IMG/VR virus record: IMGVR_UViG_3300030444_000240
Source of the DNA: a virus
Lineage: Duplodnaviria; Heunggongvirae; Uroviricota; Caudoviricetes
Direction: 5' to 3' (one strand)
DNA: 30,976 nt
Below are positions 3,001-21,269 of this stretch, one piece after another (the first letter of the stretch is position 1; every line of letters starts with the position of its first letter). The notes under the pieces are model-generated. The model saw only the letters and a list, made by a program, of their open reading frames with translations, made no database searches and was not told the DNA's origin. The translations under genes and the position numbers were made by a program.

Positions 3001-3267
3001 TCAGGTCAAAATACCTGGGATGTACAAGGCTCAGTAGGTATGTCTACGGGGTGGTTAGCTAATACCAGTACAGATGGTAATCATAGCCACTCACTGTCCG
3101 GCACAGCAGCATCTGCAGGTGCACACGCGCATACTGTCGGTATTGGTGCTCATACGCACTCTGTTGCGATTGGCTCACATGGACACACCATCACCGTTAA
3201 CGCTGCTGGTAACGCGGAAAACACCGTCAAAAACATCGCATTTAACTACATTGTGAGGCTTGCATAA
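1..3267 (+). CDS. stf: Side tail fiber protein, lambda Stf-like (5' partial; frame open from window position 1)
   Basis: Translation begins [24 protein letters not shown], then a long Ala/Ser/Thr-rich segment with KTSETNA repeats, and ends with PIPWPSD...[10 protein letters not shown] and His-rich GAHTHS/GSHGHT repeats and [11 protein letters not shown], matching the lambda Stf architecture as recalled. The central part (about 1380-2550) is a different, non-repetitive domain, and there is a tandem repeat of a [28 protein letters not shown] unit at about 1129-1350. Confidence 0.9.
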
Positions 3268-3838
3268 TGGCATTCAGAATGAGTGAACAACCACGGACCA
3301 TAAAAATTTATAATCTGCTGGCCGGAACTAATGAATTTATTGGTGAAGGTGACGCATATATTCCACCTCATACAGGTCTGCCTGCAAACAGTACCGATAT
3401 TGCACNNNNNNNNNNNNNNNNNNNNNNNNNNNNNNNNNNNNNNNNNNNNNNNNNNNNNNNNNNNNNNNNNCATCTCGTTGAAGATCATCGGGGTAAAACG
3501 GTTTATGACGTGGCTTCCGGCGACGCGTTATTTATTTCTGAACTCGGACCGCTACCGGAAAATGTTACCTGGTTGTCGCCGGGAGGGGAATATCAGAAGT
3601 GGAACGGCACAGCCTGGGTGAAGGATACGGAAGCAGAAAAACTGTTCCGGATCCGGGAGGCAGAAGAAACAAAAAACAGCCTGATGCAGGTAGCCAGTGA
3701 GCATATTGCGCCACTTCAGGATGCTGTAGATCTGGAAATCGCAACGGAGGAAGAAATCTCGTTGCTGGAAGCATGGAAGAAGTATCGGGTGTTGCTGAAC
3801 CGTGTTGATACATCAACTGCACCTGATATTGAGTGGCC
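3141..3838. repeat. Direct repeat copy 1 (stf 3' end plus tfa), about 700 bp, nearly identical by eye to 27794-28482
   Basis: Aligned by eye: tattggtgctcatacgcact... through ...gatattga(g/a)tggcc, with scattered substitutions. Copy 1 contains the N gap. Confidence 0.8.
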
Positions 3839-3860
3839 GATAATTCCTGTAACATCATAG
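3267..3860 (+). CDS. tfa: Tail fiber assembly protein (Tfa), copy 1; interrupted by an N gap
   Basis: [46 protein letters not shown] ... matches lambda Tfa as recalled; the ATG overlaps the stf stop (TAATG). Residues across 3406-3470 are unknown. Confidence 0.85.
3406..3470. other. Assembly gap or masked bases (65 N)
   Basis: Run of n characters in the sequence. Confidence 1.
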
Positions 3861-3972: not shown

Positions 3973-4926
3973 TTACCATATATCTATGGGTTTTGTTTTC
4001 TGCTCATCTAAACAAAATGCACAGATGTAAGCCCCCTTACTTCGGTTGTACTGAACCGTTTCTAAAGCAGAGTCAAGATGTTTACTATCAAAGTTCCAGC
4101 TTTTTTCCATAACAGAAACACATTTTCTGCAATAGAAACTTTCTTTTGAGTTAGTATCTCCTGAATCATTTTTAGTGTAGCCAAAGAATTTTTTTGCTGA
4201 TTCCTTTGAACATGCGGAAATGGCTGCAGTGAACTCATAATGAGTTTGAAGCATAGCCCATACAATACCTGAAAATTCTTCATCCTCGTCTTCATCTAAT
4301 CCTATATTAATGCCGCCAGAGGAATGTATTGCTTTATATTTATACCTATGCCATATCCAGTGTGCTGATTCAGTATTTAGATAGTTGTGAGCACGTACAA
4401 CTGATGTGAAAATTAGCTCTGGCATTATATCTGTTTTTTTATCAACCGTATGCATAAAACGATTTCTTAGAATGCGCATACTATTAAACCAAGTAATAAA
4501 GTCATCAGGCAGTGATTTAGAGGCGAAAGTATTATATACTTTAATTAAATCTTGGGCGTCTAATGTGTGGAAGTCTGAAAATGAAATGTTACCTTCACTA
4601 TCAGGTTTAGGTGTATTGCGAGTTGCATTCGTGATAAGTAGATAAGGTGATATTTCGACGATAAGTCCTTTTAGTCTGAATTCAATAGATTGAAGTATCA
4701 AATTAAAAGATGTAATCAATTTTGGTCTAGCAAATAACCAATAATGCTCTAAATTTTTAATATCTGATTCTGTATAGAATTCAGACGTTTTACAATAACT
4801 ATTCCAAAGGTTTATATCTCTGTAATCATAAGCTAAATCGGCAATTTTTTCCCAAGCCTCATTTACCATGTGGTCAGCCATTGTATAAAAATCAGTCTTT
4901 GTTGGAATGTCAGTTATCATTATCAA
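3973..4926 (-). CDS. Hypothetical protein with HEPN-like Rx4H motif and C-terminal CxxC...CxxC zinc-ribbon-like motif (candidate Abi-type protein)
   Basis: 317-aa ORF in AT-rich DNA just downstream of tfa. Contains RNRFMH (R-x4-H) in the middle and CRKC...CAFC near the C-terminus. No confident family assignment. Confidence 0.5.
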   Translation of the reverse strand: MIMITDIPTKTDFYTMADHMVNEAWEKIADLAYDYRDINLWNSYCKTSEFYTESDIKNLEHYWLFARPKLITSFNLILQSIEFRLKGLIVEISPYLLITNATRNTPKPDSEGNISFSDFHTLDAQDLIKVYNTFASKSLPDDFITWFNSMRILRNRFMHTVDKKTDIMPELIFTSVVRAHNYLNTESAHWIWHRYKYKAIHSSGGINIGLDEDEDEEFSGIVWAMLQTHYEFTAAISACSKESAKKFFGYTKNDSGDTNSKESFYCRKCVSVMEKSWNFDSKHLDSALETVQYNRSKGAYICAFCLDEQKTKPIDIW

Positions 4927-5157: not shown

Positions 5158-5393
5158 TCACTCGTCAGCTGACTCCCAAGTATCTTTCAGAGTTTCCTGA
5201 ACAAAAGTTTTAGCTGAATCTTTATCGGCGGTGCGCCTAACAGAAAAACCATCGTTGCTGGTGGCTTTTACGATCATCTCCACATCGTCATAATGCTCGC
5301 CAATGTATTGGGTTAATTCTTCCTTTAATGCGTCTACAGCGCCGTTTGGCATTTGGTCATTTTGTCTTTGGCTATGGAGATCTCAATACGCAT
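5158..5393 (-). pseudogene. dinI: DinI-family protein gene, apparently frameshifted near its 5' end
   Basis: ORF 5158-5352 ends ...[12 protein letters not shown] (DinI-like C-terminus). An upstream ATG at 5393 in another frame encodes [11 protein letters not shown] (DinI-like N-terminus) before a stop. A LexA box lies immediately upstream. Confidence 0.5.
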
Positions 5394-5426: not shown

Positions 5427-5634
5427 TTATTCTTATCTGTGTAAATAAACAGTATCAAGACTTCGTTTTAGCTGCATAAGAAAAAAGAGATGGATACATT
5501 CGGAAAGATTTTGATGGTGGTAGGCTAAGTGAATAGCCTAAAGGTGTTTTACCCCAATTATTCCCCGGTATTTCTCCGCATAAAAAACAATCATAAAAAC
5601 AACAGCCATAATAGGCTGGTTCTTAAGGGATTTT

Positions 5635-5674
5635 TGGTCCACGAGAGAATTTGAACCTCCGACCCCCGACACCC
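5635..5674 (-). other. tRNA 3'-end-like fragment (tRNA-Pro-like T-arm and acceptor, ending CCA); possible att remnant
   Basis: Reverse complement reads GGGGTCGGAGGTTCAAATTCTCTCGTGGACCA, resembling a tRNA T-loop and acceptor 3' end. No D-arm or anticodon arm upstream, and the T-stem pairing is imperfect. Confidence 0.3.
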
Positions 5675-5696
5675 CATAATGGTGTAATTAATCAGG

Positions 5697-6065
5697 TTAA
5701 ATATTTAGCAGATCCTCTACAATATCATTAAACCCAGATGCCTGTTTAGATACAGAATTGAATAAGTCTCTAAGTGCTTGTGTTTGCTCAAAAGTTTCCC
5801 AAAGTGTTTTATAACTTGGCGTTACAATTGCTAATACTAAGCCTTCCGCCCATGACCATTCATGTTCATCAAAATAGTAGCGATATTTTCTGCTGTATAT
5901 AACAAAATCCTTTTCCTTATATTTAGCATGAAACACAACTTGAATTATATCCTGTGTACCATTAACAAGGTTTTCAGGCGCATCAATTGCCATCCAATTT
6001 ATCATTTTTTGGACAGTTAACTTATTTAATGAAACAATTAGCTTTGTGGTTTTATCGTTATGCAT
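5697..6065 (-). CDS. Hypothetical protein (122 aa), second gene of a two-gene operon
   Basis: ORF in AT-rich DNA; its ATG lies 2 nt after the stop of the upstream ORF (TAAttATG). No recognisable motifs. Confidence 0.5.
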   Translation of the reverse strand: MHNDKTTKLIVSLNKLTVQKMINWMAIDAPENLVNGTQDIIQVVFHAKYKEKDFVIYSRKYRYYFDEHEWSWAEGLVLAIVTPSYKTLWETFEQTQALRDLFNSVSKQASGFNDIVEDLLNI

Positions 6066-6067
6066 AA

Positions 6068-6529
6068 TTAGTCCAGTTGCATATCTTTCACAATTTCGTT
6101 AACTCTTGAGTTGAGTATACTCAACTTCTCATAGAGCTTCCAGGCTTGGTCTTGGTCATTGATATTAATGGAGATTTCTTTTCTTCGAAAGATTCCTTTG
6201 GGTTTGACTTCATCAAAAAATATATCAATCTTTGAGCGTTCCTTGGTTGGAAGCCTGCTGAAAAGGCTTTCAGTTAGCACTGCACACTCAGTAAACTCCT
6301 TACGTATAAATTCTTTCTGAGTAACCCAGTCTCCAATAGCATCATTTATCAATGAGGCTTTTTTTTGAAGATTGCTATGGATTTCAGGTATTCGAACCTT
6401 GTTTCTGAGAGTGGCCTTCAATGAACGCGTCGTAAAAAAAAGTTTTACAGTTACAACAAAACCGACAATACCCGCTAGGGAGGATATGTCAGTTACCGTC
6501 TGTGATAGGGGCCAAGTCAGGATATCCAT
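6068..6529 (-). CDS. Hypothetical protein (153 aa) with one predicted N-terminal transmembrane helix, first gene of a two-gene operon
   Basis: Hydrophobic stretch SSLAGIVGFVVTVKLFF near the N-terminus; tightly coupled to the downstream ORF. Confidence 0.5.
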   Translation of the reverse strand: MDILTWPLSQTVTDISSLAGIVGFVVTVKLFFTTRSLKATLRNKVRIPEIHSNLQKKASLINDAIGDWVTQKEFIRKEFTECAVLTESLFSRLPTKERSKIDIFFDEVKPKGIFRRKEISININDQDQAWKLYEKLSILNSRVNEIVKDMQLD

Positions 6530-6559
6530 GATGAAAAATCCAATGCTTAAGTTGATACG

Positions 6560-6585
6560 AAAAAACCCGCATATGCGGGTTTTTT
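6560..6585 (-). terminator. Intrinsic terminator-like hairpin (bidirectional)
   Basis: A-run, cccgc-atat-gcggg stem-loop, T6 run. Confidence 0.5.
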
Positions 6586-6711
6586 CGTCGCTCGGGAGCC
6601 GCGGCTCCTTTGCGTATCCTTTTTTGTCTCCTCACCGTCTGGTCGGTGTCCTGCTGAGACTGCTAACTTCCTGTTTTTGTTGGTGTTGTCCTTACACCGT
6701 CCAATCATGAT

Positions 6712-6744
6712 TGGTGGAGCTGGCGGGAGTTGAACCCGAGTCCG
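6712..6744 (-). other. tmRNA (ssrA) 3'-end-like fragment; probable attachment-site core remnant
   Basis: Reverse complement GGACTCGGGTTCAACTCCCGCCAGCTCCACCA closely matches the E. coli ssrA 3' end as recalled (one mismatch). No tmRNA body upstream. Confidence 0.5.
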
Positions 6745-6816: not shown

Positions 6817-7716
6817 TTATGTCTGGATGTGGTCGTCAACACATCCTCTTTTAAATACAGGCGCTTTTACCTTAGTTGGATCATCTGTTTTAAAGATTTT
6901 CAATCGTTCACTGAAGAACATTACCTCAGATCCTTTGTACCGATCTTGAGCACTGTAGTTTATTCCATATACTAATGATGATGTCTTATACATAGCTTGG
7001 ATCTCAGGAGTGTTATCGTAAGAAACAATCCAAGGTGTTTTAATATTATTCTGTACGACTTTTGCAACCCTAACATGATCATCATGATTATAATGGTTGA
7101 TATATAAACCTTTACCTTTTATGTAATAAGGTGGATCCAAATATGTTAATGAGTTTTGTGGCAATTGAATAACTATTTTTTTAATGAAATCAATTGCATC
7201 CATGTTATATAAATCTATTCTGTGACGATTTTCTGATATTTTATGGATTCGAGAAATCAAATCACTCTTATTATAGCGAGCGTCAAGCTTCCATTTCCCT
7301 TCTTGATTTTTACCGCCAATTACTCCACCTTTTAATATTCCAGAACGATTTGTTCTATTGAGAAAAAAGGTTGAGAAACCAATTGTTAAAAGATCATGGT
7401 CTTTAGGATTATTAATTATATCTTTCTGCCTAAACCATTCATCCATTGTAACTTCAGTTCTTTCAATTAAAGAACATAATTGATCTGCATGATTTAATAC
7501 ACTGTGCCAAAAAGCATAAACAGAAATATTAATATCATTAAGGATGATTTTTTCAGCTGCATTTAGATGTAACAGTTTCAATGCTAAACCAGCACCCCCA
7601 GCATATGGTTCGGCATAATGTATAGGCGAAAGATTATTTTCTTCAATAAGCCGAAGCATGAAATTTGCAAGCTTGCCTTTACCGCCAGGATAGCGAAGTG
7701 GGGTGTTAAAACGCAT
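6817..7716 (-). CDS. DNA N6-adenine methyltransferase, Dam/D12 class
   Basis: N-terminal RYPGGK, EPYAGGAG (AdoMet-binding motif I-like) and DPPY catalytic motif; 299 aa. Confidence 0.8.
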   Translation of the reverse strand: MRFNTPLRYPGGKGKLANFMLRLIEENNLSPIHYAEPYAGGAGLALKLLHLNAAEKIILNDINISVYAFWHSVLNHADQLCSLIERTEVTMDEWFRQKDIINNPKDHDLLTIGFSTFFLNRTNRSGILKGGVIGGKNQEGKWKLDARYNKSDLISRIHKISENRHRIDLYNMDAIDFIKKIVIQLPQNSLTYLDPPYYIKGKGLYINHYNHDDHVRVAKVVQNNIKTPWIVSYDNTPEIQAMYKTSSLVYGINYSAQDRYKGSEVMFFSERLKIFKTDDPTKVKAPVFKRGCVDDHIQT

Positions 7717-7750
7717 ATGATACCTCTAAATGTCAGATCTAAAGTATATC

Positions 7751-7789
7751 AAAAAAAGGGCTTTGTGGCCATCACATAAAGCCCTTTTT
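7751..7789 (-). terminator. Intrinsic terminator between the OLD-like gene and the MTase gene
   Basis: gggcttt-loop-aaagccc hairpin flanked by an A7 run and a T5 run; on the minus strand the stem is followed by a T-run. Confidence 0.6.
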
Positions 7790-7795
7790 AATCAA

Positions 7796-9529
7796 TTAGT
7801 TATCTGACAGATATGATGAGATGGTAGCAGAATCGACACCATGTCCACTTGTCATAATAACTTTAAGACTCTTTATTAGTTCATTCTTGAAGCTATCCGA
7901 TTGCACAGGATTTTTCTCGACCCAATATCGATATGGGTTATCTTTAACTCGCCCTTTTACTTGGGCCTGAAATTGAGTCGTATGTGCAAAATCTTTAAAC
8001 AGTTTTCTAACTATCCCGCCATGGTTTTTGTTAACTTTTTTATAATTATCTATAAGGATTTTTAAATCAATCGGAGCGTTACCAATCTTTAGCGTTGCAA
8101 TTATGTCTTTAGCTGTTTTCATAAAAACAGCTTTTGTAAATTTATTTTTATTTTCCCAATATGCATCATCAGGTGGTAAATTATATAAAAACTCAAAAAT
8201 CATTTGGTCTGGAGGTAAGGTGCTTGGAAGCAAACATAAGTTTTTTTCTTTTTTGGCTTTTTTTGCATTAGCACTATTGTCGTGAACAACATCACCGTCT
8301 AAGACGATCAAGCTTTTAGCTGTAAATTCTGGTATTTTTCTTGCCATTAAGTCAAGCATGGCAGAGCAGCTAATATTTATATTCCCTAATGGATTTAATA
8401 TTTTATTTATTTTTCGATCTGTTATCAATTGTTTGAAAAAGTCGAAACCTTCTTTGTCTTCAAAATATACATTTGCCTTTGGAAGACAAATGTCATCATT
8501 AATTTTTACAGTTTCAACATGTAAATCAGCGTGGATATCTGTCCATGAAAGATTATTCTTTGTTTTAATATCTCCATATGTGTCTGTAAGATATATTGTT
8601 TTAAAGCTATCACTATCTTGTTTTGAACGATTATAGATATCCTCTATTATTAATGGAGAGTGCGAGGTCATGATTATTTGCAGATCGTATTGTTTTGCTG
8701 CTTTAGTTAGAATATTAATTAGCTCTAACTGTGCAGCAGGGAAAAGACCTGCATCGGCTTCATCAATTAACAATATTCCGCCATGATAATCAGAATAAGT
8801 TTCCTTCAATCTTTTAAATGAAAAAATTGCTTGGATTAATTGTCCAACATTATCTTCACCAACAGATACTGATTGGTGATCATAATTGTCACCATGGACA
8901 ACCATTGAATCGATAGTACCTTTTGTTGCTGTTACTGAGCTTCCATTGTTTTTTAGTAAGAGTTGGTTACTCATCATTCTAATTTCATCAGAATTTTCAT
9001 TGATGTACTGAACATCCCGTGTTGAGTAATCAGTCCTTAATGTAATAGGAAGAAGTCGTGCTAAGCTTAAAAAAATAACAGGATGAGTAACGTTTCTACT
9101 TTGGTTTTTTTCCGGTATTGAATCATTTCCCCTGACTACAGGCCTTGATTTATCTCTGTCACTGTAGCTGTATAAACCTAATGTTAGTTTTTCAAGATGT
9201 TTGTTCGATGCACCATCATAGACACTAATTTTGACGTCCATTGAACCAGGAACATCAAATTGTTCTGAAAGCCTAAAATGTTCGCTGAAAGCTGACTTGA
9301 AGCTGCCATTTGTTAATGTTTTATATTGTGTTAAATCAGTCTCAGGGTTTTTGGTAAAGTCCTTTGTAAAGCTAAATATTTGGGCGATAATGCCAAGAAT
9401 TGTGGATTTAGATGTGCCATTTTTACCACAAATAACAGTTAGGCGAGAACCAAACTCGATGTTTATATTTTTCAGTCCGCGAAACTTCACAACATTTATA
9501 TTTTTTAGTTTGGTAATTTGATTTGCCAT
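7796..9529 (-). CDS. OLD-family ATP-dependent nuclease-like protein (ABC ATPase plus C-terminal Toprim-like domain)
   Basis: Walker A ICGKNGTSKST, Walker B ILLIDEAD, TSHSP motif, then C-terminal VYFEDKEGFDFF and LIVLDGD (DxD). Start chosen at MANQITKL (9529), which has a GGAG 9-13 nt upstream and a palindromic hairpin beyond it; the ORF track extends to 9580. Confidence 0.7.
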   Translation of the reverse strand: MANQITKLKNINVVKFRGLKNINIEFGSRLTVICGKNGTSKSTILGIIAQIFSFTKDFTKNPETDLTQYKTLTNGSFKSAFSEHFRLSEQFDVPGSMDVKISVYDGASNKHLEKLTLGLYSYSDRDKSRPVVRGNDSIPEKNQSRNVTHPVIFLSLARLLPITLRTDYSTRDVQYINENSDEIRMMSNQLLLKNNGSSVTATKGTIDSMVVHGDNYDHQSVSVGEDNVGQLIQAIFSFKRLKETYSDYHGGILLIDEADAGLFPAAQLELINILTKAAKQYDLQIIMTSHSPLIIEDIYNRSKQDSDSFKTIYLTDTYGDIKTKNNLSWTDIHADLHVETVKINDDICLPKANVYFEDKEGFDFFKQLITDRKINKILNPLGNINISCSAMLDLMARKIPEFTAKSLIVLDGDVVHDNSANAKKAKKEKNLCLLPSTLPPDQMIFEFLYNLPPDDAYWENKNKFTKAVFMKTAKDIIATLKIGNAPIDLKILIDNYKKVNKNHGGIVRKLFKDFAHTTQFQAQVKGRVKDNPYRYWVEKNPVQSDSFKNELIKSLKVIMTSGHGVDSATISSYLSDN

Positions 9530-9551
9530 GTTTCTATCTTGCTCCGTAAAA

Positions 9552-9570
9552 TGGCCACAAATTGTGGCCA
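9552..9570. other. Perfect 9+1+9 palindrome between the int 3' end and the OLD-like start
   Basis: tggccacaa-a-ttgtggcca; on the minus strand it is followed by ATTTTA. Could be the int terminator or a recombination or regulatory site. Confidence 0.4.
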
Positions 9571-9587
9571 ATAGTTTCATGCTTGGA

Positions 9588-10754
9588 TTATATTGTTATC
9601 TTCTTCAAGCTTGTTTGTCCATCATATTCCTTCAGATATGAGCCATAGTGCCTGAAAAGCATCTCAGGCCCTTTATGCCCCATTTGAGCTGCAAGCCAAA
9701 ACAGGTTTGCTCCCCGGCTGATATGTCTGGTGGCGAATGTATGCCTGGTTTGATATGGGTTTCTGTAACGAATACCTGCTTTTCGCAATGTTGGCACCCA
9801 TGCTTTTTTCCTAATTGCATCAGCACTTGCCCAGGGTTTATTGGTCTTTGGATCTTCAAAGACAGTAGCATCCTTCATGAATGTAAATGGCTTCTGGTTT
9901 ATCAACGCCAACATTGCTTCTTCAGTCAGTTCAACTTTACGGGTACCGGCTTTTGTCTTTGTTCCTTTGATAACTCCGACAACACTTGCGCTCTGAACAT
10001 GGGCTGTTTTTCCAACAAAGTCGATATCATGCCATCGTAGGGCACATAATTCAGAACTACGCAGGCCTGTATGTATGGCGAACCGGAACAGATTTTCCCA
10101 TTGTTTGTTTCCGGCTGCTGCTAGTAATGCATCAACTTCTGCTGGTGATAGCGGATCAACCACATAGCTGCTTTCTGCTTCTGACTTATCACTTTGGTAG
10201 CGCGAAGCAGTTACCAACGATACGGGGTTAATTTGAAGTACCCCATCGGTTACGGCTTCATCAAGTGCTGACCGCAGGAAAGATAACTGGTTGCGAATTG
10301 TTTTTAAGGTCGTTTTCTGGCTTTGAATCCACGCTTTCAGGATTGCTGGTGTTAATTCACTTGCAGGGCAAATGTGGAGTGAGGCTAACGCACTACGGCA
10401 TTTTTTATAACCACCAATCGTAGATGGTGAAAGTTTTCTCGTTTCGCAGATTTCAAGGTATTCGTCCAGGTACATTTTTACCGTTTTGCCTGCAGCAGCA
10501 TTACCAAAAATTTTCAAACGAGCAGAACGGGGAAAATATTCCGCATAAATGAATGTTCCCCTTTCGATCTTATTATGAATTTCGCCGAGTGTGCGCTCGG
10601 CGTATTTAATGTTCTTTGGTGTTACTTCCAGATTGGAAAGAGGCTCACGACATTTAACGCCTTTGTAGGTGAAAGTTATATTGATCGTTTCGCCCTGGCG
10701 GTGTTTCCTGATTGTTACGCCGCGCGGTAGTTTGAGCAGTTTTGTCTGGCCCAT
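9588..10754 (-). CDS. int: Tyrosine site-specific integrase
   Basis: 388 aa; C-terminal catalytic region with RHTFATRH (HxxR) and LFWLAAQMGHKGPEMLFRHYGSY (catalytic Tyr); N-terminal arm-binding-like segment. Confidence 0.9.
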   Translation of the reverse strand: MGQTKLLKLPRGVTIRKHRQGETINITFTYKGVKCREPLSNLEVTPKNIKYAERTLGEIHNKIERGTFIYAEYFPRSARLKIFGNAAAGKTVKMYLDEYLEICETRKLSPSTIGGYKKCRSALASLHICPASELTPAILKAWIQSQKTTLKTIRNQLSFLRSALDEAVTDGVLQINPVSLVTASRYQSDKSEAESSYVVDPLSPAEVDALLAAAGNKQWENLFRFAIHTGLRSSELCALRWHDIDFVGKTAHVQSASVVGVIKGTKTKAGTRKVELTEEAMLALINQKPFTFMKDATVFEDPKTNKPWASADAIRKKAWVPTLRKAGIRYRNPYQTRHTFATRHISRGANLFWLAAQMGHKGPEMLFRHYGSYLKEYDGQTSLKKITI

Positions 10755-10933
10755 TTTGCAACCTCACTAAGATCAATCCACCTCTCCTTAACGCCTTCAA
10801 CCTTTAAAACCTGAACACCTTCACGCCAAACACCGCGCTGTACACGTTTGTTTATTGCTTCAGGAGTTTCGCCAGTTTCTTTGCAATAAGTTGAGATAGG
10901 AACACAATCGAGGTTCAGCATATGTTTCTCCAC
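10715..10933 (-). CDS. xis: Excisionase-like small DNA-binding protein
   Basis: 72-aa ORF overlapping the int start on the same strand, as in lambdoid xis-int; basic, W-rich small protein. Confidence 0.55.
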   Translation of the reverse strand: MEKHMLNLDCVPISTYCKETGETPEAINKRVQRGVWREGVQVLKVEGVKERWIDLSEVAKWARQNCSNYRAA

Positions 10934-10980
10934 TTAGCCCGCTGCACATGGGCAGTAATATCAAATTCCAGTCCTGATAA

Positions 10981-11196
10981 TTAATTTTGTTCTCTGGTTG
11001 CTACTTGTTTTATTGGCCTGATGCTGTCCAGGAGCAGACGGCGGCGCATGTTTGGCGCGCCCCAACGGTAACCAGTCTTTTTGTCGTAGGATTCACAACG
11101 TCCGACAACCCAGGAGGTTTCAGTGGAATGTAATTTCATCCGCTTTTCACCGTCTCGGGTGATAACAATTCCTGTATGAGTTTTTATCACGCTCAT
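10981..11196 (-). CDS. Hypothetical phage early protein (71 aa)
   Basis: ORF in the leftward early operon; start overlaps the upstream gene stop. Confidence 0.4.
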   Translation of the reverse strand: MSVIKTHTGIVITRDGEKRMKLHSTETSWVVGRCESYDKKTGYRWGAPNMRRRLLLDSIRPIKQVATREQN

Positions 11197-11555
11197 TTTT
11201 TATTCTCCGGTGCTTTCGGCATTACTGCCCAGTGGGTAATATTGACGTTTTCAAGGTCCCCGACCTGAAATGTCCACTGCCATTCTCCGGTTTCTTTTTG
11301 CCCCCATGTGTACCAGAGAGAACGCCAGCCAATCAGCCAGCCTTCTCCATTAGCATCAAATAACAGAACACTTTCATGTGCTGGCGGCAGTTCAGCTGAC
11401 ACTGGTATTACTTTGTTTTCCAGTGCTGCACATTTAGCTTCAAGCGCATCGAATTTACGTATCAGGTATTCAGCATCCGTTTCATTCACTTTCAGATCTC
11501 GCGGTACACATTTCCCGCGAAGAAACCCTTCCATTTCGAAAACATTCATGCGCAT
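11193..11555 (-). CDS. Hypothetical phage early protein (120 aa)
   Basis: ORF in the leftward early operon, translationally coupled to its neighbours. Confidence 0.45.
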   Translation of the reverse strand: MRMNVFEMEGFLRGKCVPRDLKVNETDAEYLIRKFDALEAKCAALENKVIPVSAELPPAHESVLLFDANGEGWLIGWRSLWYTWGQKETGEWQWTFQVGDLENVNITHWAVMPKAPENKK

Positions 11556-12082
11556 TTGCGTAACTCCGATAACTCGTTGAAGCGCTCAATAAACATCCCG
11601 TAGGCATGGCTCGGTGCCAGTGGAATCACGTTGAACATCTCTGTTGCCGGGATACCTTCCAGTACAGGCCAGAAAGAGCCATCATCAAGCCCGAGATCGC
11701 GGCGTTCGGTTGCCAGCATGATGAGATCGGCATATTTCACAGGCGTGCTCATAACCGTGGGTAACCCGTATTTCTCACGGATTACGGCGTCTATTTTTTC
11801 TTCCATCCGTTTATAGTCGGGAAGAAGGCGTTTCAGTGGCGCGGGGATGTCCTGGCAATACGCTTCTGTCGCATCATGCATTAACGCTTCAAAAGCAAAT
11901 TCCTGCGGTACCAGCTGGCTGCAAAGCACCGCATGTTGGGCGACGCTGTAGAAGTGTGAAAGATGGCCGGCAAAGCGACAGATATTTGAAAGGGAAACCG
12001 CGATATCGTTAATATCGATGTTGTCTTTATTTATCCTGTCATAATAAAAATGCTTCCCGGAAAAAGTTTTAATAAATGACAT
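11546..12082 (-). CDS. HD-domain phosphohydrolase-like protein
   Basis: FAGHLSHFYSVAQH ... HDATEAY resembles H...HD metal-dependent phosphohydrolase motifs. Start set at MSFIKTF (GGAG RBS); the ORF track extends to 12142. Confidence 0.55.
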   Translation of the reverse strand: MSFIKTFSGKHFYYDRINKDNIDINDIAVSLSNICRFAGHLSHFYSVAQHAVLCSQLVPQEFAFEALMHDATEAYCQDIPAPLKRLLPDYKRMEEKIDAVIREKYGLPTVMSTPVKYADLIMLATERRDLGLDDGSFWPVLEGIPATEMFNVIPLAPSHAYGMFIERFNELSELRKCA

Positions 12083-12627
12083 TTTGTTCTCCACGTTATA
12101 TGCGCTGCACCGCGCTGAATTCGGGTAAAAGGAAGCCCTCACCGTCCGGCGATTATTGAGTCAATTACATTTCCATAAATGCCCCCGTAGGGGCGGTTAG
12201 TTTCTCCACAAAACAGAGAAGAACACCTGCGGTGGCAGCCGCCCGGATGGATTGGGTTATGAGCCCGTCGTCCGATGATGCTCTTCTCTGTTTTGTAAAA
12301 AGGACGGTACCAGCCGGAAGCAAGGGTACAAGCTGGTACCGCCAAGACAACACACAGCATAAAGTTGTGGTGCCGGGTGCCTCCCGGTGCCTGGCGAAGG
12401 TTGTACACCAGACGGGTGGGTATCCACAGAAGGTCGACTGTCAGCCTTAACCTTAACCCGCGTGCGCTGAGCCGCATTCACCACAACGCTAAGGATTCTC
12501 TCTGGTTGAAAATACTTAGCTGTTATGTGCCTGCTTTTAGCCACATCAGGCGAGGTGGACCTGGTTATTCCCCAACAACAAGGATTCGGTATAATCTGGA
12601 TATCCCAACAACAGGTAGGAAGGAAAT

Positions 12628-12711
12628 ATGTACGTAGATAGCAATGAAAAATTTCATGTTCCGGTAAATCAGAGACCAGCACCGATCCCTGAGCCGAAAC
12701 CTGAAATGTAA
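12628..12711 (+). CDS. Small ORF (27 aa) preceding the membrane protein gene
   Basis: TATAAT at 12590-12595, AGGAAGG RBS, ATG at 12628; encodes MYVDSNEKFHVPVNQRPAPIPEPKPEM. Speculative. Confidence 0.3.
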   Translation: MYVDSNEKFHVPVNQRPAPIPEPKPEM

Positions 12712-12721
12712 GGGAATAGAG

Positions 12722-13201
12722 ATGACTCGAGACGATCTAGCATTCGATATTCATTATTCTTTCTTTCTTGAGAAAATGAATTACACCCTTTTAAATCGGA
12801 TAGACAAGAGCATAACTCTTGTTCTCATTGTCTTGGGCTTTTCTGTTTTTGCGCCATATAGCAATATGTTTATTTTTGGCGCATCTGTAGCTATTTTGTC
12901 GGTGCTTCAATTGGTATACCAATTTGGGCAGGAAGCTGGCTTATCAAAGGAACAGATGCGACAGTATAAAAGGTTGATTGTTGAGTTTTCCTCCCTTTCT
13001 GATGACGAACTACGCACTCGGTTTTTAAAGGTTCAAGACGCTGATAGTAATCCATGGAGATCTTTACAAGATGCTGCGTTCAAACGGACCTGTATTGCGC
13101 TGGGACGTGTTGATGAGTCAGAAATATCATTCATGCATAGCGTTATCGCATGGTTTGCTGGAGATTTGCCTCGGTCAAAAAGGTGTAATAATGACAAATA
13201 G
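12722..13201 (+). CDS. Membrane protein of unknown function (two predicted TM helices), convergent with cI
   Basis: 159 aa; hydrophobic segments ITLVLIVLGFSVFAPY and IFGASVAILSVLQLVY. Lies in the immunity region on the strand opposite the repressor, with its own putative promoter. Confidence 0.55.
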   Translation: MTRDDLAFDIHYSFFLEKMNYTLLNRIDKSITLVLIVLGFSVFAPYSNMFIFGASVAILSVLQLVYQFGQEAGLSKEQMRQYKRLIVEFSSLSDDELRTRFLKVQDADSNPWRSLQDAAFKRTCIALGRVDESEISFMHSVIAWFAGDLPRSKRCNNDK

Positions 13202-13431
13202 AATTCCCATAATCCCTAACCATGTACCTCCAAAGCCCAGACCACCATCACCAAAGTCACACAGGCTTTATGAGTATGAATTAATAATGGATTCTATATT
13301 GAGATGACCAAATGAATGCATTTATATATACATGGAAAGAGGATCATATACCCTTAAAACCTCGTCCTTCACCGCCAGAACCGAAGCCAAAATCCCGTTA
13401 AGTGTTGGGGATCTCCAGATTGTTAAAGAGC

Positions 13432-13456
13432 GAAGCGTCCTATAGGGCGCTTTTTT
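13432..13456 (+). terminator. Possible intrinsic terminator (imperfect hairpin plus T6)
   Basis: gcgtcc-tata-gggcgc followed by tttttt. Confidence 0.35.
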
Positions 13457-13573
13457 GTTGCTAACGAATCATCCTGGACTTCATATGCCCCAGGCGGCTA
13501 CTTCGTGGGCGTCCTACCTGTTCGTTGTTTCTCTTGGGTACATTATGTATCTCAAAGGTACATTGTCAAGTAT

Positions 13574-13595
13574 AAAAAAACCTGCCGAAGCAGGT
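13574..13595 (-). terminator. Intrinsic terminator directly downstream of the repressor gene
   Basis: acctgc-cgaa-gcaggt hairpin followed on the minus strand by a U7 run; 14 nt from the cI stop. Confidence 0.6.
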
Positions 13596-13608
13596 TCATA
13601 AACATTGA

Positions 13609-14283
13609 TTAGGCTTTGATTTTGTATCTTCTTGGTTTTCCTGAGAAAATCACTGTACCAATTATAGAGCAATTACCGTTGATCTTAATGTAAGGTTCAG
13701 GCCAGTTTGGGTTTAATGCTTTGAGGTAACGCTGTGTTCCATCTTCTATCAACCGCTTGAAGGTGGTTTCGCCTGTATCGTGCATCAATGCAATAACGTC
13801 GTCACCGTGGCAGGCAGGGACTTCAGGATCAACAAAAATCATGTCTCCCGGGCGGTACTCATCAATCATTGAATCACCAATCACCCGCAAGATATAAGTC
13901 ATTTCGCCACAGGGTACAGGGCAGGGGTAAGTTTCTGCTGTGCTCAAATCAACCTCAGAATAGCCAACTTCTTTCCATGCTCCGGCCTGTACCCATGATA
14001 TGACAGGGACTAACGTTATTTGTTTGTTAGTGATTGAAACATCAGGTTTTTTTGTGATGTTCGTGGTCTGGTGTTCTTGATCAAGCCATCCGACAGGCAG
14101 GTCGAAACATTTTTCGATGTGCCGCGCCATGCTGTCACCGATATTTTTAGTAGCACCATCTCCCATAAACCTGCTGGTCTGGGTTGGCTCGCGATCAATC
14201 ATAGTGGCAAAGGAAGAATTCCCGCCAACACCATCTCTCAGTTTTCTGGCGTTAGACCGCCGGATGTCATGGATTGTTTTCAT
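13609..14283 (-). CDS. CI-like prophage repressor with S24 (LexA-like) autopeptidase domain
   Basis: 224 aa; C-terminal ILRVIGDSMIDEYRPGDMIFVD ... FKRL resembles the S24 Ser/Lys dyad region. Divergent from a Cro-like gene, with palindromic operators between them. Confidence 0.85.
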   Translation of the reverse strand: MKTIHDIRRSNARKLRDGVGGNSSFATMIDREPTQTSRFMGDGATKNIGDSMARHIEKCFDLPVGWLDQEHQTTNITKKPDVSITNKQITLVPVISWVQAGAWKEVGYSEVDLSTAETYPCPVPCGEMTYILRVIGDSMIDEYRPGDMIFVDPEVPACHGDDVIALMHDTGETTFKRLIEDGTQRYLKALNPNWPEPYIKINGNCSIIGTVIFSGKPRRYKIKA

Positions 14284-14298
14284 AACGAAATTAAAACC

Positions 14299-14368
14299 CT
14301 TGTACCGTTAAGGTACAAGTATCTTGAAGGTTCATTTCAATCATGTAATATGTACACCGGAGGTACAT
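14299..14368. promoter_or_regulatory. Operator and promoter region between cI-like and cro-like genes
   Basis: Two palindromes sharing TGTAC/GGTACA half-sites: CTTGTACCGTTAAGGTACAAG (14299-14319) and ATGTACACCGGAGGTACAT (14350-14368). Confidence 0.55.
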
Positions 14369-14373
14369 ATTGT

Positions 14374-14574
14374 ATGAAAGCGTATTGGGACTCTTTAACC
14401 AAAGAACAGCAGGGCGAGTTGGCCGGAAAAGTTGGCTCAACACCTGGCTACTTACGGCTGGTTTTCAATGGCTATAAAAAAGCCAGTTTTGTGCTGGCTA
14501 AAAAACTTGAGCAATGCACGTCAGGTGCAATTACGAAATCTGACTTAAGACCGGATATCTATCCGAAAGATTAA
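14374..14574 (+). CDS. Cro-like (YdaS-type) small HTH regulator
   Basis: 66-aa ORF starting immediately after the operators (MKAYWDSLTKEQQGELAGKVGSTPGYLRLV...). The track ORF 14071-14574 overlaps cI and is an over-extension. Confidence 0.6.
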   Translation: MKAYWDSLTKEQQGELAGKVGSTPGYLRLVFNGYKKASFVLAKKLEQCTSGAITKSDLRPDIYPKD

Positions 14575-14605
14575 CAGAACACCTTCAATTTTTAACCACA
14601 GAACG

Positions 14606-15169
14606 ATGAGGCTAACCGTGGGTAAGTATCACTGGAAAGTAGAAAAACAGCCTGAGTGGTACGTGAAAGCTGTCAGAAAAACTATCGCAGCGTTGCCGGG
14701 TGGTTACGCTGAAGCAGCTGACTGGCTGGATGTAACAGAGAACGCATTATTTAACCGCCTTCGTGCCGATGGCGATCAGATTTTCCCGCTGGGATGGGCA
14801 ATGGTTTTACAGCGCGCGGCTGGCACTCACTACATTGCGGATGCTGTCGCACAGTCTGCTGGTGGGGTGTTCGTATCGCTTCCTGAAATTGAGGAAGTAG
14901 AGAACGCCGATATAAACCAGCGCCTGCTGGAAGTCATCGAACAGATCGGGAATTACTCAAAGCAGATTCGTTCGGCAATCGAAGATGGGGTCGTGGAGCC
15001 ACACGAGCAGACAGCAATTAATGATGAGTTGTATCTGTCAATTTCGAAGCTCCAGGAACATGCAGCACTGGTCTACAAAATCTTTTGCGCTCCAGAAAAG
15101 AGTGACGCCCGCGAGTGTGCAGCTCCGGGCGTCGTGGCGTTTTGTGTCTGTGGAGAAACTAACGCATGA
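14606..15169 (+). CDS. Phage early regulatory protein (CII/YdaT-like position)
   Basis: 187-aa ORF following the cro-like gene; family assignment is uncertain. Confidence 0.45.
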   Translation: MRLTVGKYHWKVEKQPEWYVKAVRKTIAALPGGYAEAADWLDVTENALFNRLRADGDQIFPLGWAMVLQRAAGTHYIADAVAQSAGGVFVSLPEIEEVENADINQRLLEVIEQIGNYSKQIRSAIEDGVVEPHEQTAINDELYLSISKLQEHAALVYKIFCAPEKSDARECAAPGVVAFCVCGETNA

Positions 15170-16002
15170 ACAGTTTAACGGCAAATAACCGTTTGTCGCA
15201 ACAGCTGGTGGTCAGTGTCGCTGAACACCTGTTGTTACGGCATGAATGCAGATTACCAAATCTCCTGGCTGTAAGTAACCACAGAGAACTTTACCTGACT
15301 GTGGGGGGCGAGTTGTGCAGGAACTTAACCGCTGGTTTCGTGACGGAAGAGGACTTTATGTTCATGTTATTCGTTGGGAGCCAGAAACACAGCGCGTTAT
15401 CTATCTTCGCAAAGACTACCCGCATGAGTGCTTTAGTCCTTTGTGGAAATTCAGGCGTGATTTTGTTGAGTGTGAAGGACCACCAGCACATTGATTCTGC
15501 CATTCCGGGACGTTACACTGTTCAGGCACCTTATAAAGCGGGTGCCGGGATTGGCGTCCTGGAATTGATCAAGGCGATATATGACGCGCCAGCGTCTTTT
15601 TTATCGTCCGCATTTGCTCACATCAAAGTTATGGTGGGCTGGGCGGGGGCATCGAAAGATGCGCCGGTTTCCTTGATCACCGGTTACGCCAACCCCGTTC
15701 AGTTCACCACCAGCGAAATTGGCGTTTCCGGTGGTGGAAGTATTTCACCGATCAAGGAGGCTGCCATCATGGCTACTGTCCCAGCCCTCACTCGTCTGAA
15801 TGATGAAGACTTACATAAACTCAGTTATGTAACAACTGCACTACGTGCTCTGCGCAAGGTAACTCTTTCGGATCCGCAGGCACATCAGGTTCTGGTAGAA
15901 ACCCTTCTTAACTTGCAAGCTGAACGTATTCGTCTGGCGGATAAGGCTAATTTTCATATTCACCGTCTCCTGAATATCAGCGGAGGGCATCGTCATGCTT
16001 AA
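15166..16002 (+). CDS. Hypothetical early ORF, possibly a composite of several small genes or frameshifted
   Basis: A 278-aa ORF, but a protein-like alternative frame runs through 15309-15480 after a G6 tract (15303-15308), and there is an internal RBS-ATG at about 15769 (AAGGAGG ... ATGGCTACT). Confidence 0.3.
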   Translation: MNSLTANNRLSQQLVVSVAEHLLLRHECRLPNLLAVSNHRELYLTVGGELCRNLTAGFVTEEDFMFMLFVGSQKHSALSIFAKTTRMSALVLCGNSGVILLSVKDHQHIDSAIPGRYTVQAPYKAGAGIGVLELIKAIYDAPASFLSSAFAHIKVMVGWAGASKDAPVSLITGYANPVQFTTSEIGVSGGGSISPIKEAAIMATVPALTRLNDEDLHKLSYVTTALRALRKVTLSDPQAHQVLVETLLNLQAERIRLADKANFHIHRLLNISGGHRHA

Positions 16003-16231
16003 TCCGTTGATCCTCAATATTTGCCGTTTGCTTCAGCGTAAAAAAACATCAATTCCTACAGTTGGGCAGTGGTACACCACGCCTGCAGGGCATGTTCTAC
16101 GTGTTAGCCTGGTTGACCGTGAATGCCAGAAGGTGATTTGTGAACCGCTGGGCCGTAATTACCGCGTCAGTATGCCGCTTATAGCCTTTCGCTCCGGAAA
16201 AAACATGAAGCATCTCGGAGGTGCAGCATGA
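15995..16231 (+). CDS. Hypothetical small protein (78 aa)
   Basis: ORF translationally coupled to its neighbours in the early-right operon. Confidence 0.4.
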   Translation: MLNPLILNICRLLQRKKTSIPTVGQWYTTPAGHVLRVSLVDRECQKVICEPLGRNYRVSMPLIAFRSGKNMKHLGGAA

Positions 16232-17046: not shown

Positions 17047-17534
17047 TCATGAGTCTGTTAAATGACGTTCAGAAATTCATTGAAGCCCATCCGGGGTGTA
17101 CTTCCGGAGACATTGCGGATGCTTTTGCAGGTTACTCACGGCAGCGCGTTCTGCAGTCAGCAAGCAAGTTACGTCAGAGTGGGCGTGTGGCTCACCGTTG
17201 TGAAGGAGATACACGCAGACATTTCCCACGCCTGACTGAGAGAGCGCAGGAGCCGGAACCACAACCAGTTCGTGAAACCAGACCTGTGCGCAATTTCTAT
17301 GTCGGCACTAACGATCCCCGGGTGATTTTGTTGACCCGCCAGGCGGAAGAACTGGAGTCCAGGGGCTTATACCGTCGTGCTGCAACGGTGTGGATGGCGG
17401 CATTCCGTGAAAGCCACTCCCAGCCAGAACGAAACAATTTTCTGGCGCATCGTGAGCGGTGCTTACGGAAAAGCAGCAAGCGCGCTGCATCGGGTGAAGA
17501 GTGGTATCTGTCAGGGAATTACGTGGGGGCTTAA
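17043..17534 (+). CDS. Hypothetical protein; C-terminal region resembles PerC/ANR-type regulators
   Basis: 163 aa; ELESRGLYRRAATVWMAAF resembles the PerC-family core as recalled. Low confidence. Confidence 0.4.
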   Translation: MIMSLLNDVQKFIEAHPGCTSGDIADAFAGYSRQRVLQSASKLRQSGRVAHRCEGDTRRHFPRLTERAQEPEPQPVRETRPVRNFYVGTNDPRVILLTRQAEELESRGLYRRAATVWMAAFRESHSQPERNNFLAHRERCLRKSSKRAASGEEWYLSGNYVGA

Positions 17535-18893: not shown

Positions 18894-18912
18894 TTAAGAG
18901 GAGAAACGAAGT

Positions 18913-19722: not shown

Positions 19723-19723
19723 G

Positions 19724-20719: not shown

Positions 20720-20736
20720 TTTTGTGGAGAAAGTTG

Positions 20737-21241: not shown

Positions 21242-21269
21242 CTAATAAGTATTATTTCGGGTAGGGATT

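What the first reader, a model, noticed from the sequence alone, without database searches (positions are those of the whole stretch)
5697..6529. Unknown two-gene operon (TM protein plus 122-aa partner) between two tRNA/tmRNA-like fragments
The two ORFs are coupled (stop and start 2 nt apart), AT-rich, and lie between a tRNA-Pro-like 3' fragment (5635-5674) and an ssrA-like 3' fragment (6712-6744). A terminator sits upstream of the pair. I recognise no domain in either protein. The first has one N-terminal TM helix, an arrangement common in small abortive-infection or toxin-effector pairs.
Basis: inference. Interest (0 to 1): 0.58.

Follow-up and report, generated by a model that had tools for sequence, protein, structure and literature searches.

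The report
Candidate two-gene anti-phage prophage cargo
Two tightly coupled genes, one for a membrane-anchored helical protein and one for a small soluble partner, sit as swappable cargo beside a prophage attachment site; the same pair occurs on many mobile elements and is most likely an untested anti-phage defence system.

Summary
Two minus-strand ORFs are real genes under purifying selection: A (6068-6529, 153 aa, one N-terminal TM helix) and B (5697-6065, 122 aa), 2 nt apart. They equal RefSeq WP_000353836.1 and WP_000551278.1.

The flanking RNA-gene fragments are attachment-site cores. One is the ssrA 3' end, the att core of an ssrA-integrating lambdoid phage. The other is the 3' 43-46 nt of tRNA-Pro(GGG) with its terminator, a relic from sister prophages at the real tRNA-Pro gene. 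Between them lies a cargo slot that holds an AbiTii protein or another ORF in other E. coli.

No Pfam, NCBIfam, PHROG, PADLOC, PDB or fold match identifies either protein. An exhaustive HMM search shows B belongs to a family of about 405 cluster representatives. In all 38 evaluable loci an A homologue lies directly upstream. These include an Aliivibrio integron cassette made of the pair alone, a Klebsiella IncF plasmid, and islets beside GmrSD, methylase, TIR, AbiC and caspase genes.

DefensePredictor (Science 2026) lists B as a predicted, untested novel defence gene.

Verdict: a self-contained mobile two-gene module. It is probably a membrane-effector defence system (about 0.5), with an addiction module as the main rival. 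Interest is moderate.

The parts
6068..6529 (-). Gene A: 153-aa protein identical to WP_000353836.1. It has a short N-terminal tail, one TM helix (about residues 15-34), a basic juxtamembrane stretch and a predicted cytoplasmic four-helix bundle.
   Evidence: ORF. Identical to the annotated RefSeq protein in E. coli HS and NZ_CP148393.1. Hydrophobicity. AF2 model pLDDT 68.5, helices 19-65, 68-92, 95-108, 126-152. Purifying selection. Homologues upstream of every B homologue.
5697..6065 (-). Gene B: 122-aa soluble protein identical to WP_000551278.1. It starts 2 nt after A's stop and belongs to a wide family of proteins about 120-130 aa long.
   Evidence: ORF. Identity to the RefSeq protein. 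dN/dS 0.07-0.13. 405 cluster representatives at E<=1e-3 in the exhaustive HMM search. Listed as a predicted novel defence gene in DefensePredictor Table S10.
6560..6585 (-). Strong hairpin with an A run and a T run (terminator of the ssrA trailer). It ends about 30 nt before A's start codon.
   Evidence: Fold dG -24.3 kcal/mol, z -5.9. The stem is kept and the loop varies across E. coli, Klebsiella and Leclercia and across different cargo types.
6586..6711 (-). Conserved ssrA 3' trailer / att-arm sequence between the ssrA CCA end and the terminator.
   Evidence: Nearly invariant across three genera (alignment A8). Window 6557-6744 matches at 89-97% next to ssrA or at a separate unannotated site in essentially all E. 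coli.
6712..6744 (-). The last 33 nt of ssrA (tmRNA): the att core of the ssrA-integrating phage. Here it has phage DNA on both sides (attP configuration).
   Evidence: Identity to intact ssrA ends at 6744. Partial Rfam tmRNA hit. Same layout in the circular record NZ_CP148393.1. The integrase at 9588-10754 is 96% identical to that record's integrase.
5635..5684 (-). 3' part (anticodon loop to CCA) of a tRNA-Pro(GGG) gene: a relic att core that forms the inner boundary of the cargo slot. The window copy has a 2-nt deletion and one T-loop change.
   Evidence: Alignment to the yejM-adjacent tRNA-Pro(GGG) gene. Conserved after the cargo in E. coli, Klebsiella and Leclercia. The same phage flank abuts the complete tRNA-Pro gene in sister prophages.
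5596..5618 (-). Terminator hairpin native to the tRNA-Pro locus, lying downstream of B. It is weakened in this copy.
   Evidence: Promoter/terminator scan. Fold dG -9.6 kcal/mol, z -3.6. Conserved with the tRNA-Pro fragment.

Best explanation
A and B form a self-contained, horizontally mobile two-gene module carried as cargo (a moron) in a swappable slot next to the attachment site of an ssrA-integrating lambdoid prophage. The most likely function is anti-phage defence of the abortive-infection type.

Proposed mechanism: A is anchored in the inner membrane by one N-terminal helix (N-out, C-in) and presents a cytoplasmic four-helix bundle. B is a cytoplasmic partner made in fixed ratio by translational coupling. 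B would either sense a phage cue or hold A in check. On infection A would self-associate through its small-residue TM face and damage the membrane, stopping phage growth.

Shown here: the genes are real, the pairing is conserved, the module is autonomous and mobile, the slot exchanges cargo, and the module keeps defence-gene company.

Inferred only: the defence function, the topology, the roles of A and B, and membrane damage.

In lysogens at ssrA the pair begins about 30 nt after the ssrA terminator with no consensus promoter. Expression is therefore probably by read-through from ssrA or from a weak promoter at the conserved TAT just after the T run (inferred).
For: 1. The genes are real. dN/dS is 0.07-0.13 for B; A has low pN with saturated pS.

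2. The pairing is strict. All 38 evaluable loci with a B homologue have an A homologue directly upstream on the same strand, with gaps from -35 to +5 nt (one locus overlaps further by the longest-start rule). These loci represent 14 clusters at >=80% identity. A homology is supported by hmmsearch E 6e-13 to 5e-5, reciprocal 6e-16, and hhalign 98.5%.

3. The module is autonomous. In the Aliivibrio fischeri chromosomal integron the pair alone fills one cassette between two attC repeats.

4. The module is mobile. It occurs in prophages at ssrA in E. coli, Klebsiella and Leclercia, on a Klebsiella IncF plasmid, in a conjugative-element region in Vibrio injensis, in an integrase island and beside IS elements.

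5. It keeps defence company. The same slot holds an AbiTii protein in other E. coli, and the next slot holds GmrSD. Neighbours elsewhere include GmrSD_N (two contexts), HNH, a 908-aa N6 methylase, a type I R-subunit-like protein, a caspase-like protein, TIR (two contexts), putAbiC and a D12 methylase with ParB_N. In the window a methylase matching PD-Lambda-5_B and an ABC-type ATPase sit across the att core.

6. DefensePredictor Table S10 lists WP_000551278.1 as a 'Predicted novel defense gene'. Mean log-odds is 7.33 against a strict cutoff of 4, with no HHblits or Foldseek hit to known defence proteins. In that study 45% of cloned predicted units protected against phage.

7. The A family keeps I21, G23 and T27 in the TM helix, a basic juxtamembrane stretch and a C-terminal KD..W(D/E) tail. 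This fits a membrane-anchored effector that self-associates.
Against: No experiment exists. Neither protein has detectable homology or fold similarity to any defence protein.

B has no conserved catalytic-type residues, and its AF2 model is unreliable (pLDDT 49.7).

A single-pass protein with a generic four-helix bundle is not in itself a pore former.

The DefensePredictor score uses neighbour genes and GC content, so it is not independent of the context argument. A was not found in the held, truncated tables.

Some loci lie between housekeeping genes with no defence neighbour. Toxin-antitoxin modules share all these contexts.

The strong terminator directly upstream and the absence of a consensus promoter leave expression in the prophage unproven.
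Confidence: 0.5

Rival explanations
1. Toxin-antitoxin or addiction module. One protein (probably membrane-anchored A) is toxic and the other neutralises it. The pair would stabilise the prophage, plasmid, integron array or island that carries it, without any dedicated anti-phage role.
For: Small, tightly coupled two-gene operon. Present as a single integron cassette in an array that also holds ParE/Phd. Present on an IncF plasmid near the replicon. B has an acidic C-terminal tail and no catalytic residues, as many antitoxins do.
Against: No similarity to any toxin or antitoxin family in Pfam, NCBIfam or PADLOC. B has no recognisable DNA-binding domain for autoregulation. In the enterobacterial prophage there is no room for an own promoter, which addiction modules normally have. 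Many TA modules are themselves defence systems, so this rival overlaps the main explanation.
Confidence: 0.2
2. Superinfection exclusion. Membrane-anchored A, helped by B, blocks DNA entry of related phages at the inner membrane, protecting the lysogen without cell death.
For: Prophage moron position next to the tail-fibre and att region. Inner-membrane anchor. Prophage exclusion proteins are often small membrane proteins (general knowledge).
Against: The periplasmic part of A is only about 14 residues, and the bulk of A and all of B are predicted to be cytoplasmic. The pair is equally at home in integron cassettes, plasmids and chromosomal islets that are not phages, where phage-specific exclusion is less expected.
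Confidence: 0.1
3. Accessory module with a function unrelated to phages, such as envelope stress, membrane homeostasis or a host-fitness factor, that simply hitch-hikes in mobile-element cargo slots.
For: No functional signature of any kind. Several loci have only housekeeping neighbours. The only profile hit of B to a solved structure is a weak match to PspA (E 0.034).
Against: The PspA match aligns predicted strands of B to a coiled coil and is at chance level. Alternative cargo in the same slot and frequent neighbours are restriction, Abi, TIR or caspase type. The distribution is patchy and strain-specific: 13 of 5,426 complete E. coli genomes.
Confidence: 0.17
4. Accessory factors of site-specific recombination at the ssrA att site, for example directionality or arm-binding proteins.
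For: The pair is immediately adjacent to the att core and its conserved arm in every enterobacterial copy.
Against: Sister prophages with the same att arm, and a circular phage with a 96% identical integrase, carry unrelated genes in this slot or the neighbouring one. The pair also occurs where no ssrA-type att site or tyrosine integrase of this kind is nearby. A membrane anchor is unexpected for a DNA-binding factor.
Confidence: 0.03

Closest known systems
DefensePredictor predicted cluster WP_000551278.1 (DeWeirdt, Mahoney and Laub, Science 2026, PMC13092281, Table S10)
   Same: It is the same protein as B, 100% identical. It is classed as a 'Predicted novel defense gene' with mean log-odds 7.33 and no homologue among known defence proteins.
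   Different: That listing is a machine-learning score for one gene among 1,041 clusters. It was not cloned or tested. The paper does not describe the partner A, the conserved pairing, the family breadth, the integron cassette or the att-slot anatomy. A was not found in the held, truncated tables.
RexAB of phage lambda (prophage-encoded abortive infection)
   Same: Works-like resemblance only: a prophage-carried two-gene system with one inner-membrane protein and one cytoplasmic partner, expressed in the lysogen (general knowledge).
   Different: No sequence similarity was detected in PADLOC or Pfam searches. From general knowledge, RexB has four TM helices and RexA is about 280 aa; here there is one TM helix and 153 + 122 aa. 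The genomic position also differs (immunity region versus att-proximal cargo slot).
AbiT / AbiTii-domain proteins
   Same: An AbiTii-domain protein (Pfam PF18864, E 3e-33) occupies exactly the same slot between the ssrA terminator and the tRNA-Pro relic in other E. coli.
   Different: It is not homologous to A or B (hhalign probability 0.1-0.2%). It is a single 306-aa gene instead of a pair.
Defence systems carried as integron cassettes (reported for sedentary and mobile integrons)
   Same: A homologous pair forms one complete cassette between attC sites in the Aliivibrio fischeri chromosomal integron. Papers report that integron cassettes encode phage defence systems (listed; only titles and abstracts were read).
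   Different: I found no evidence that this particular cassette was among those tested. The window copy is in a prophage, not an integron.
Type II toxin-antitoxin modules
   Same: Two small, translationally coupled genes on mobile elements, integron cassettes and plasmids.
   Different: No match to any toxin or antitoxin family, no DNA-binding domain, and the first gene is membrane-anchored.

Membership tests
A/B two-gene module (family defined here) | A B-type protein of about 120-130 aa is immediately preceded, on the same strand, by an A-type protein of about 148-172 aa with one N-terminal TM helix. | tested here: met
   38 of 38 evaluable loci; gaps -35 to +5 nt (one locus overlaps further by the longest-start rule); A HMM E 1e-37 to 1e-64. 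TM helix present in all upstream proteins checked.
DefensePredictor 'predicted novel defence gene' clusters | The protein accession is listed in Table S10 with log-odds above the strict cutoff of 4. | tested here: met
   WP_000551278.1, identical to B, has mean log-odds 7.33, range 6.87-7.85. This is a prediction, not a validation. A was not found in the held, truncated tables.
Experimentally validated defence systems (PADLOC-DB 2.0, NCBIfam 2026, DS-1 to DS-45) | Sequence match to a model or listed accession of a validated system. | tested here: not met
   No PADLOC hit for A, B or 61 B relatives; only scattered weak hits for A relatives (ZorA 1.5e-3; PbeC 8e-5 in one member). No NCBIfam family. 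Accessions absent from the held supplementary files, including the table of 118 cloned units.
Abortive-infection systems with a membrane effector | Confers phage resistance at the population level with death or arrest of the infected cell and loss of membrane integrity. | not testable with these tools
   Needs plaque, infection-dynamics and membrane-potential assays.
AbiT / AbiTii | AbiTii domain (PF18864) or profile similarity to it. | tested here: not met
   Pfam gives no hit for A or B. hhalign against the AbiTii protein from the same slot gives probability 0.1-0.2%.
Type II toxin-antitoxin | Recognisable toxin fold or family, and an antitoxin with a DNA-binding domain. | tested here: not met
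   No Pfam or NCBIfam hit for either protein or for 61 B relatives. Toxicity and neutralisation were not testable here.
Prophage moron / att-proximal cargo slot | Conserved flanks with different, unrelated genes between them in related prophages. | tested here: met
   The flanks 5603-5684 and 6557-6744 are conserved. The cargo between them is A/B, an AbiTii protein or a 273-aa ORF.
Integron gene cassette | ORF(s) bounded by attC recombination sites within an array next to intI. | tested here: met
   Met for the Aliivibrio homologue only: attC-type repeats at L010 6343-6466 and 7370-7491 bracket the pair, with an integrase at the array end. The window copy is not a cassette.
tRNA/tmRNA-targeting phage att site | Identity block equal to the 3' end of the RNA gene, present next to the intact gene in lysogens and next to an integrase in the phage form. 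| tested here: met
   ssrA core: intact ssrA directly followed by A/B in E. coli HS, Klebsiella and Leclercia; the core lies near the integrase in the circular record and in the window. tRNA-Pro block: the complete tRNA-Pro(GGG) gene abuts the same phage flank in sister prophages.

The most novel reading that the evidence does not exclude
A/B is the founding member of a widespread, previously undescribed two-component immune system. The family has about 405 clusters at 50% identity across Enterobacteriaceae, Vibrionaceae, Shewanella and marine metagenomes. Its two proteins have no relatives among known defence proteins. A single-pass membrane protein with a cytoplasmic four-helix bundle would be switched by a small non-enzymatic partner. 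The module is small enough to travel as one integron cassette. In ssrA lysogens it would be expressed by read-through from the host's very active tmRNA gene, so that immunity is switched on by integration itself.
Probability: 0.3. Interest if true: 0.65.

Novelty: new member of a known kind. Interest (0 to 1): 0.45.

Why it matters
If the pair protects against phage it would add a compact defence family (about 830 bp) with two unannotated protein families and probably a new way of coupling sensing to a membrane effector. It is common enough to matter: hundreds of sequence clusters, on prophages, plasmids, integrons and conjugative elements.

The att-proximal slot is bounded by a used ssrA core and a relic tRNA-Pro core. 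It is a ready-made place to mine further cargo in enterobacterial prophages.

The anatomy raises a testable idea: prophage cargo placed directly behind the ssrA terminator may borrow the host's tmRNA promoter.

One of the 1,041 untested DefensePredictor clusters now comes with its obligate partner, family alignments and contexts. That makes it a well-defined target for cloning.

Tried and rejected
1. Family libraries. Pfam, PHROGs, NCBIfam and PADLOC on A and B gave nothing. The weak DUF4130 and BrxA hits of B (E about 0.05) were rejected as chance. Scanning 61 B relatives and 13 A relatives one by one gave nothing consistent.

2. Solved structures by profile. The only hits were Dandelion-HEPN (E 0.34), which vanished with the deeper alignment, and PspA (E 0.034). 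Both were rejected. An RxxxxxH motif in B is not conserved and lies in predicted strands.

4. Split AbiT idea. Rejected by hhalign.

A scan of species-representative genomes with the enterobacterial alignment found nothing. tblastn of B against the INPHARED phage collection found nothing.

6. Tandem prophages at ssrA as the explanation for the window. Abandoned when the right end proved to be a tRNA-Ser-type relic followed by chromosomal DNA near the pao genes. The ssrA core here is best described as an attP configuration inside a mosaic prophage region.

7. Own promoter for the pair. The consensus scan found none between the terminator and the start codon. Only a conserved TAT after the T run is left as a weak candidate.

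8. Full-text literature search for the two accessions found nothing. They appear only in a supplementary table.

Full report
WHAT IS THERE

The finding's coordinates hold two ORFs on the minus strand. A is 6068..6529 (153 aa). B is 5697..6065 (122 aa). A's TAA stop and B's ATG are 2 nt apart. Both proteins are identical to RefSeq WP_000353836.1 and WP_000551278.1, annotated 'hypothetical protein' in E. coli HS and in NZ_CP148393.1.

The pair is 36% GC in a 44% GC window.

Both are real genes. Against the Klebsiella and Leclercia orthologues, B has dN/dS of 0.07-0.13. A has pN of 0.11-0.16 while synonymous sites are saturated.

A has one hydrophobic helix at about residues 15-34. An acidic 14-residue tail precedes it and the basic stretch RSLKATLRNKVR follows it. 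By the positive-inside rule this places the bulk of A in the cytoplasm (the topology is inference).

AlphaFold2 on a shallow alignment gives A a mean pLDDT of 68.5. The TM helix runs into a four-helix bundle. B gets only pLDDT 49.7, with three long strands and two C-terminal helices.

THE TWO RNA-GENE FRAGMENTS

Positions 6712-6744 are the exact 3' end of ssrA. Rfam gives a sub-threshold tmRNA hit there.

In E. coli HS, Klebsiella and Leclercia, an intact smpB-ssrA is followed directly by a conserved trailer of about 165 nt, a strong terminator, and then A and B. Behind them come DinI, further cargo and the tail-fibre genes of a prophage.

In the 44.6-kb circular record NZ_CP148393.1, which is a complete lambdoid phage genome, the same core sits between A/B on one side and cargo plus an integrase on the other. 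The window has this same attP-type layout. Its integrase (9588-10754) is 96% identical to that record's integrase.

The second fragment (5635-5684) is the 3' 43-46 nt, from the anticodon loop to CCA, of the tRNA-Pro(GGG) gene that lies next to yejM. Its native terminator follows.

This block is conserved after the cargo in all three genera and whatever the cargo is. In 249 of 5,426 complete E. coli genomes the phage sequence inside it (the DinI side) is present. In 40 of the 60 best-matching records that sequence abuts the complete tRNA-Pro gene at yejM. The one inspected in detail has the gene order tRNA-Pro, DinI, cargo, tail-fibre assembly, tail fibre.

The tRNA-Pro piece is therefore the att core of a sister lineage, kept as a relic. 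The ssrA att-integrase module was added outside it. A/B sits in the roughly 870-bp slot between the two cores.

THE SLOT EXCHANGES CARGO

The flanks 5603-5684 and 6557-6744 are conserved, while the content differs. It is A/B in 13 genomes: nine strains, counting the four records of E. coli HS as one, plus the circular record. In others it is a 306-aa AbiTii-domain protein (Pfam E 3e-33) or a 273-aa ORF.

The next slot, between DinI and the tail-fibre assembly gene, holds a 317-aa ORF here. Elsewhere it holds GmrSD or other ORFs.

Across the att core, a third slot next to the integrase holds a D12 methylase plus an ABC-type ATPase here. In the circular phage it holds ParA plus two ORFs.

EXPRESSION SIGNALS

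The hairpin at 6560-6585 is strong (dG -24.3 kcal/mol, z -5.9). Its stem is kept and its loop varies between lineages.

A starts 30-33 nt after the T run. The AbiTii cargo starts only about 12 nt after it. No consensus sigma-70 promoter was found.

The cargo is therefore probably transcribed by read-through from upstream: from ssrA in ordinary lysogens, and from the methylase operon in this window. A weak promoter at the conserved TAT is the alternative. This is inference.

WHAT THE PROTEINS ARE

Nothing known matches either protein in Pfam, PHROGs, NCBIfam (June 2026), PADLOC or PDB sequence profiles.

The word-indexed homology search found only Enterobacteriaceae relatives at 65% identity or more. 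The exhaustive HMM search with the B profile found 405 cluster representatives at E<=1e-3 and 97 at E<=1e-10. Nearly all are 117-140 aa and match over the full length.

The B family keeps W24, T17, L13, W72, L101 and an SG(I/V)D motif before an acidic amphipathic tail. It has no catalytic-type residues.

IS THE PAIRING CONSERVED?

I collected 39 loci with a B homologue, down to about 25% identity. These give 29 distinct sequences in 14 clusters at 80% identity or more.

Of the 39, 38 can be evaluated, and every one has an A homologue directly upstream on the same strand, overlapping or within 5 nt. One of them is probably frameshifted.

The upstream proteins are truly homologous to A: hmmsearch E 6e-13 to 5e-5, reciprocal 6e-16, hhalign 98.5%. 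All have the single N-terminal TM helix. The A family keeps I21, G23 and T27 in that helix and a C-terminal KD..W(D/E) tail.

WHERE THE PAIR LIVES

- ssrA prophages of several tail types in E. coli, Klebsiella and Leclercia.
- A Klebsiella IncF plasmid, next to a TIR protein.
- A conjugative-element region in Vibrio injensis, and Shewanella beside a T6SS effector.
- An integrase island, a locus next to putAbiC, and IS-flanked loci.
- Small islets beside GmrSD (two contexts), HNH, a 908-aa N6 methylase, a type I R-like protein, a caspase-like protein, and a D12 methylase with ParB_N.
- Sometimes between housekeeping genes.

The most telling case is the Aliivibrio fischeri chromosomal integron. 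There the pair alone fills one cassette between two attC repeats. The two genes are therefore a sufficient mobile unit.

PRIOR KNOWLEDGE

Full-text search for the accessions found nothing.

[quoted passage not shown] Its mean log-odds is 7.33 against a strict cutoff of 4, with no HHblits or Foldseek link to known defence proteins.

It was not among the 118 cloned units. Overall, 45% of the cloned predicted units protected against phage. The model uses neighbour genes and GC content, so its score overlaps my context evidence.

INTERPRETATION

Shown: a real, strongly constrained, strictly paired, autonomous and mobile two-gene module. It sits in a prophage cargo slot whose alternative occupants and frequent neighbours are defence genes.

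Inferred: anti-phage defence, probably abortive. Membrane-anchored A would be the effector. Translationally coupled B would be the sensor or brake. I put this at about 0.5.

An addiction (toxin-antitoxin) module is the main rival (about 0.2) and partly overlaps. Superinfection exclusion (about 0.1) and an unrelated accessory function (about 0.17) remain open. A role in recombination at the att site is nearly excluded by slot replacement and by the non-phage contexts.

NOVELTY AND SCORE

This is a new, unannotated family of a familiar kind: small mobile defence or TA-like cargo. One gene was already flagged computationally, but the pair is not described or tested. A specialist would find it plausible rather than surprising. 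Its value is as a well-defined candidate with a clear test. Interest 0.45.

CAVEAT ON THE WINDOW

The ssrA core here has phage DNA on both sides. The right end of the adjoining defective prophage ends at a tRNA-Ser-type relic next to chromosomal DNA, not at ssrA. The region is therefore a mosaic, and I did not resolve how it formed.

Noticed in passing
window 6817-9580 (-), with integrase 9588-10754 (-): A D12 adenine methylase (6817-7716) matches the PADLOC PD-Lambda-5_B model at E 5e-124. The adjacent 594-aa ABC-type ATPase (7796-9580) hits only generic defence ATPase models (PtuA, AriA, GajA; phrog_3940). This looks like a defence cargo in a third slot between the att core and the integrase, but assignment to PD-Lambda-5 is only half supported.
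   Followed up: partly
window 3973-4926 (-): A 317-aa ORF (WP_000627053.1, 'hypothetical') in the second cargo slot contains RILRNRFMH, an RNxxxH HEPN-type motif, and C-terminal CxxC...CxxC. It has no hit in any library. The same slot holds GmrSD or other ORFs in other E. coli. It is a possible further defence candidate.
   Followed up: partly
window 5158-5352 (-): The DinI-like gene is intact here (64 aa, Pfam DinI E 9e-14). The corresponding gene is annotated as a frameshifted pseudogene in E. coli HS, NZ_CP148393.1 and the sister prophages.
   Followed up: no
window 29360-29420 (+), and 29492-30976: The 3' part of a tRNA-Ser(CGA)-like gene (anticodon stem to CCA) lies after the second tail-fibre assembly gene. 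It is followed by chromosome-like DNA: an AraC regulator and an IS remnant, and in strain S43 the pao genes. The att-type cores on the two sides of the defective prophage (ssrA versus tRNA-Ser) do not match, so the region is a mosaic.
   Followed up: partly
window 3406-3470 and 29439-29491: Two runs of N (65 and 53 nt), presumably masked stretches. The first lies inside the tail-fibre assembly gene 3267-3860.
   Followed up: no
window 10754-28500: The prophage to the right of the integrase lacks head and tail genes. The lysis genes (25123-26156) are followed almost directly by a tail-fibre assembly gene (27919-28500). In strain S43 the equivalent region is annotated as a truncated DNA-packaging gene joined to a truncated tail-fibre gene.
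   Followed up: partly
window 3619-3817 (+), 28262-28460 (+), 15526-15714 (+): Two full-length Rfam IS009 matches (229 and 212 bits) lie inside the two tail-fibre assembly genes. An isrK / C4 antisense RNA pair (64 and 82 bits) lies in the early region of the defective prophage.
   Followed up: no
L005-L008 (Klebsiella prophages at ssrA), about 1-5 kb beyond the pair: The cargo behind the pair varies between strains. It includes an SRAP-domain protein, SEC-C proteins, a UmuDC-like pair, a TIR protein, a trypsin-like protein, DinI and a Tad2-like (anti-Thoeris family) gene. This is a rich variable region worth mining.
   Followed up: no
window 6586-6711 and equivalents in L001, L003-L005, L008, L009: The roughly 165 nt after the ssrA CCA end are almost invariant between E. 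coli, Klebsiella and Leclercia, while synonymous sites of the adjacent A gene are saturated. The trailer is under strong constraint (integrase or IHF arm sites, or tmRNA 3' processing). The cause was not determined.
   Followed up: no
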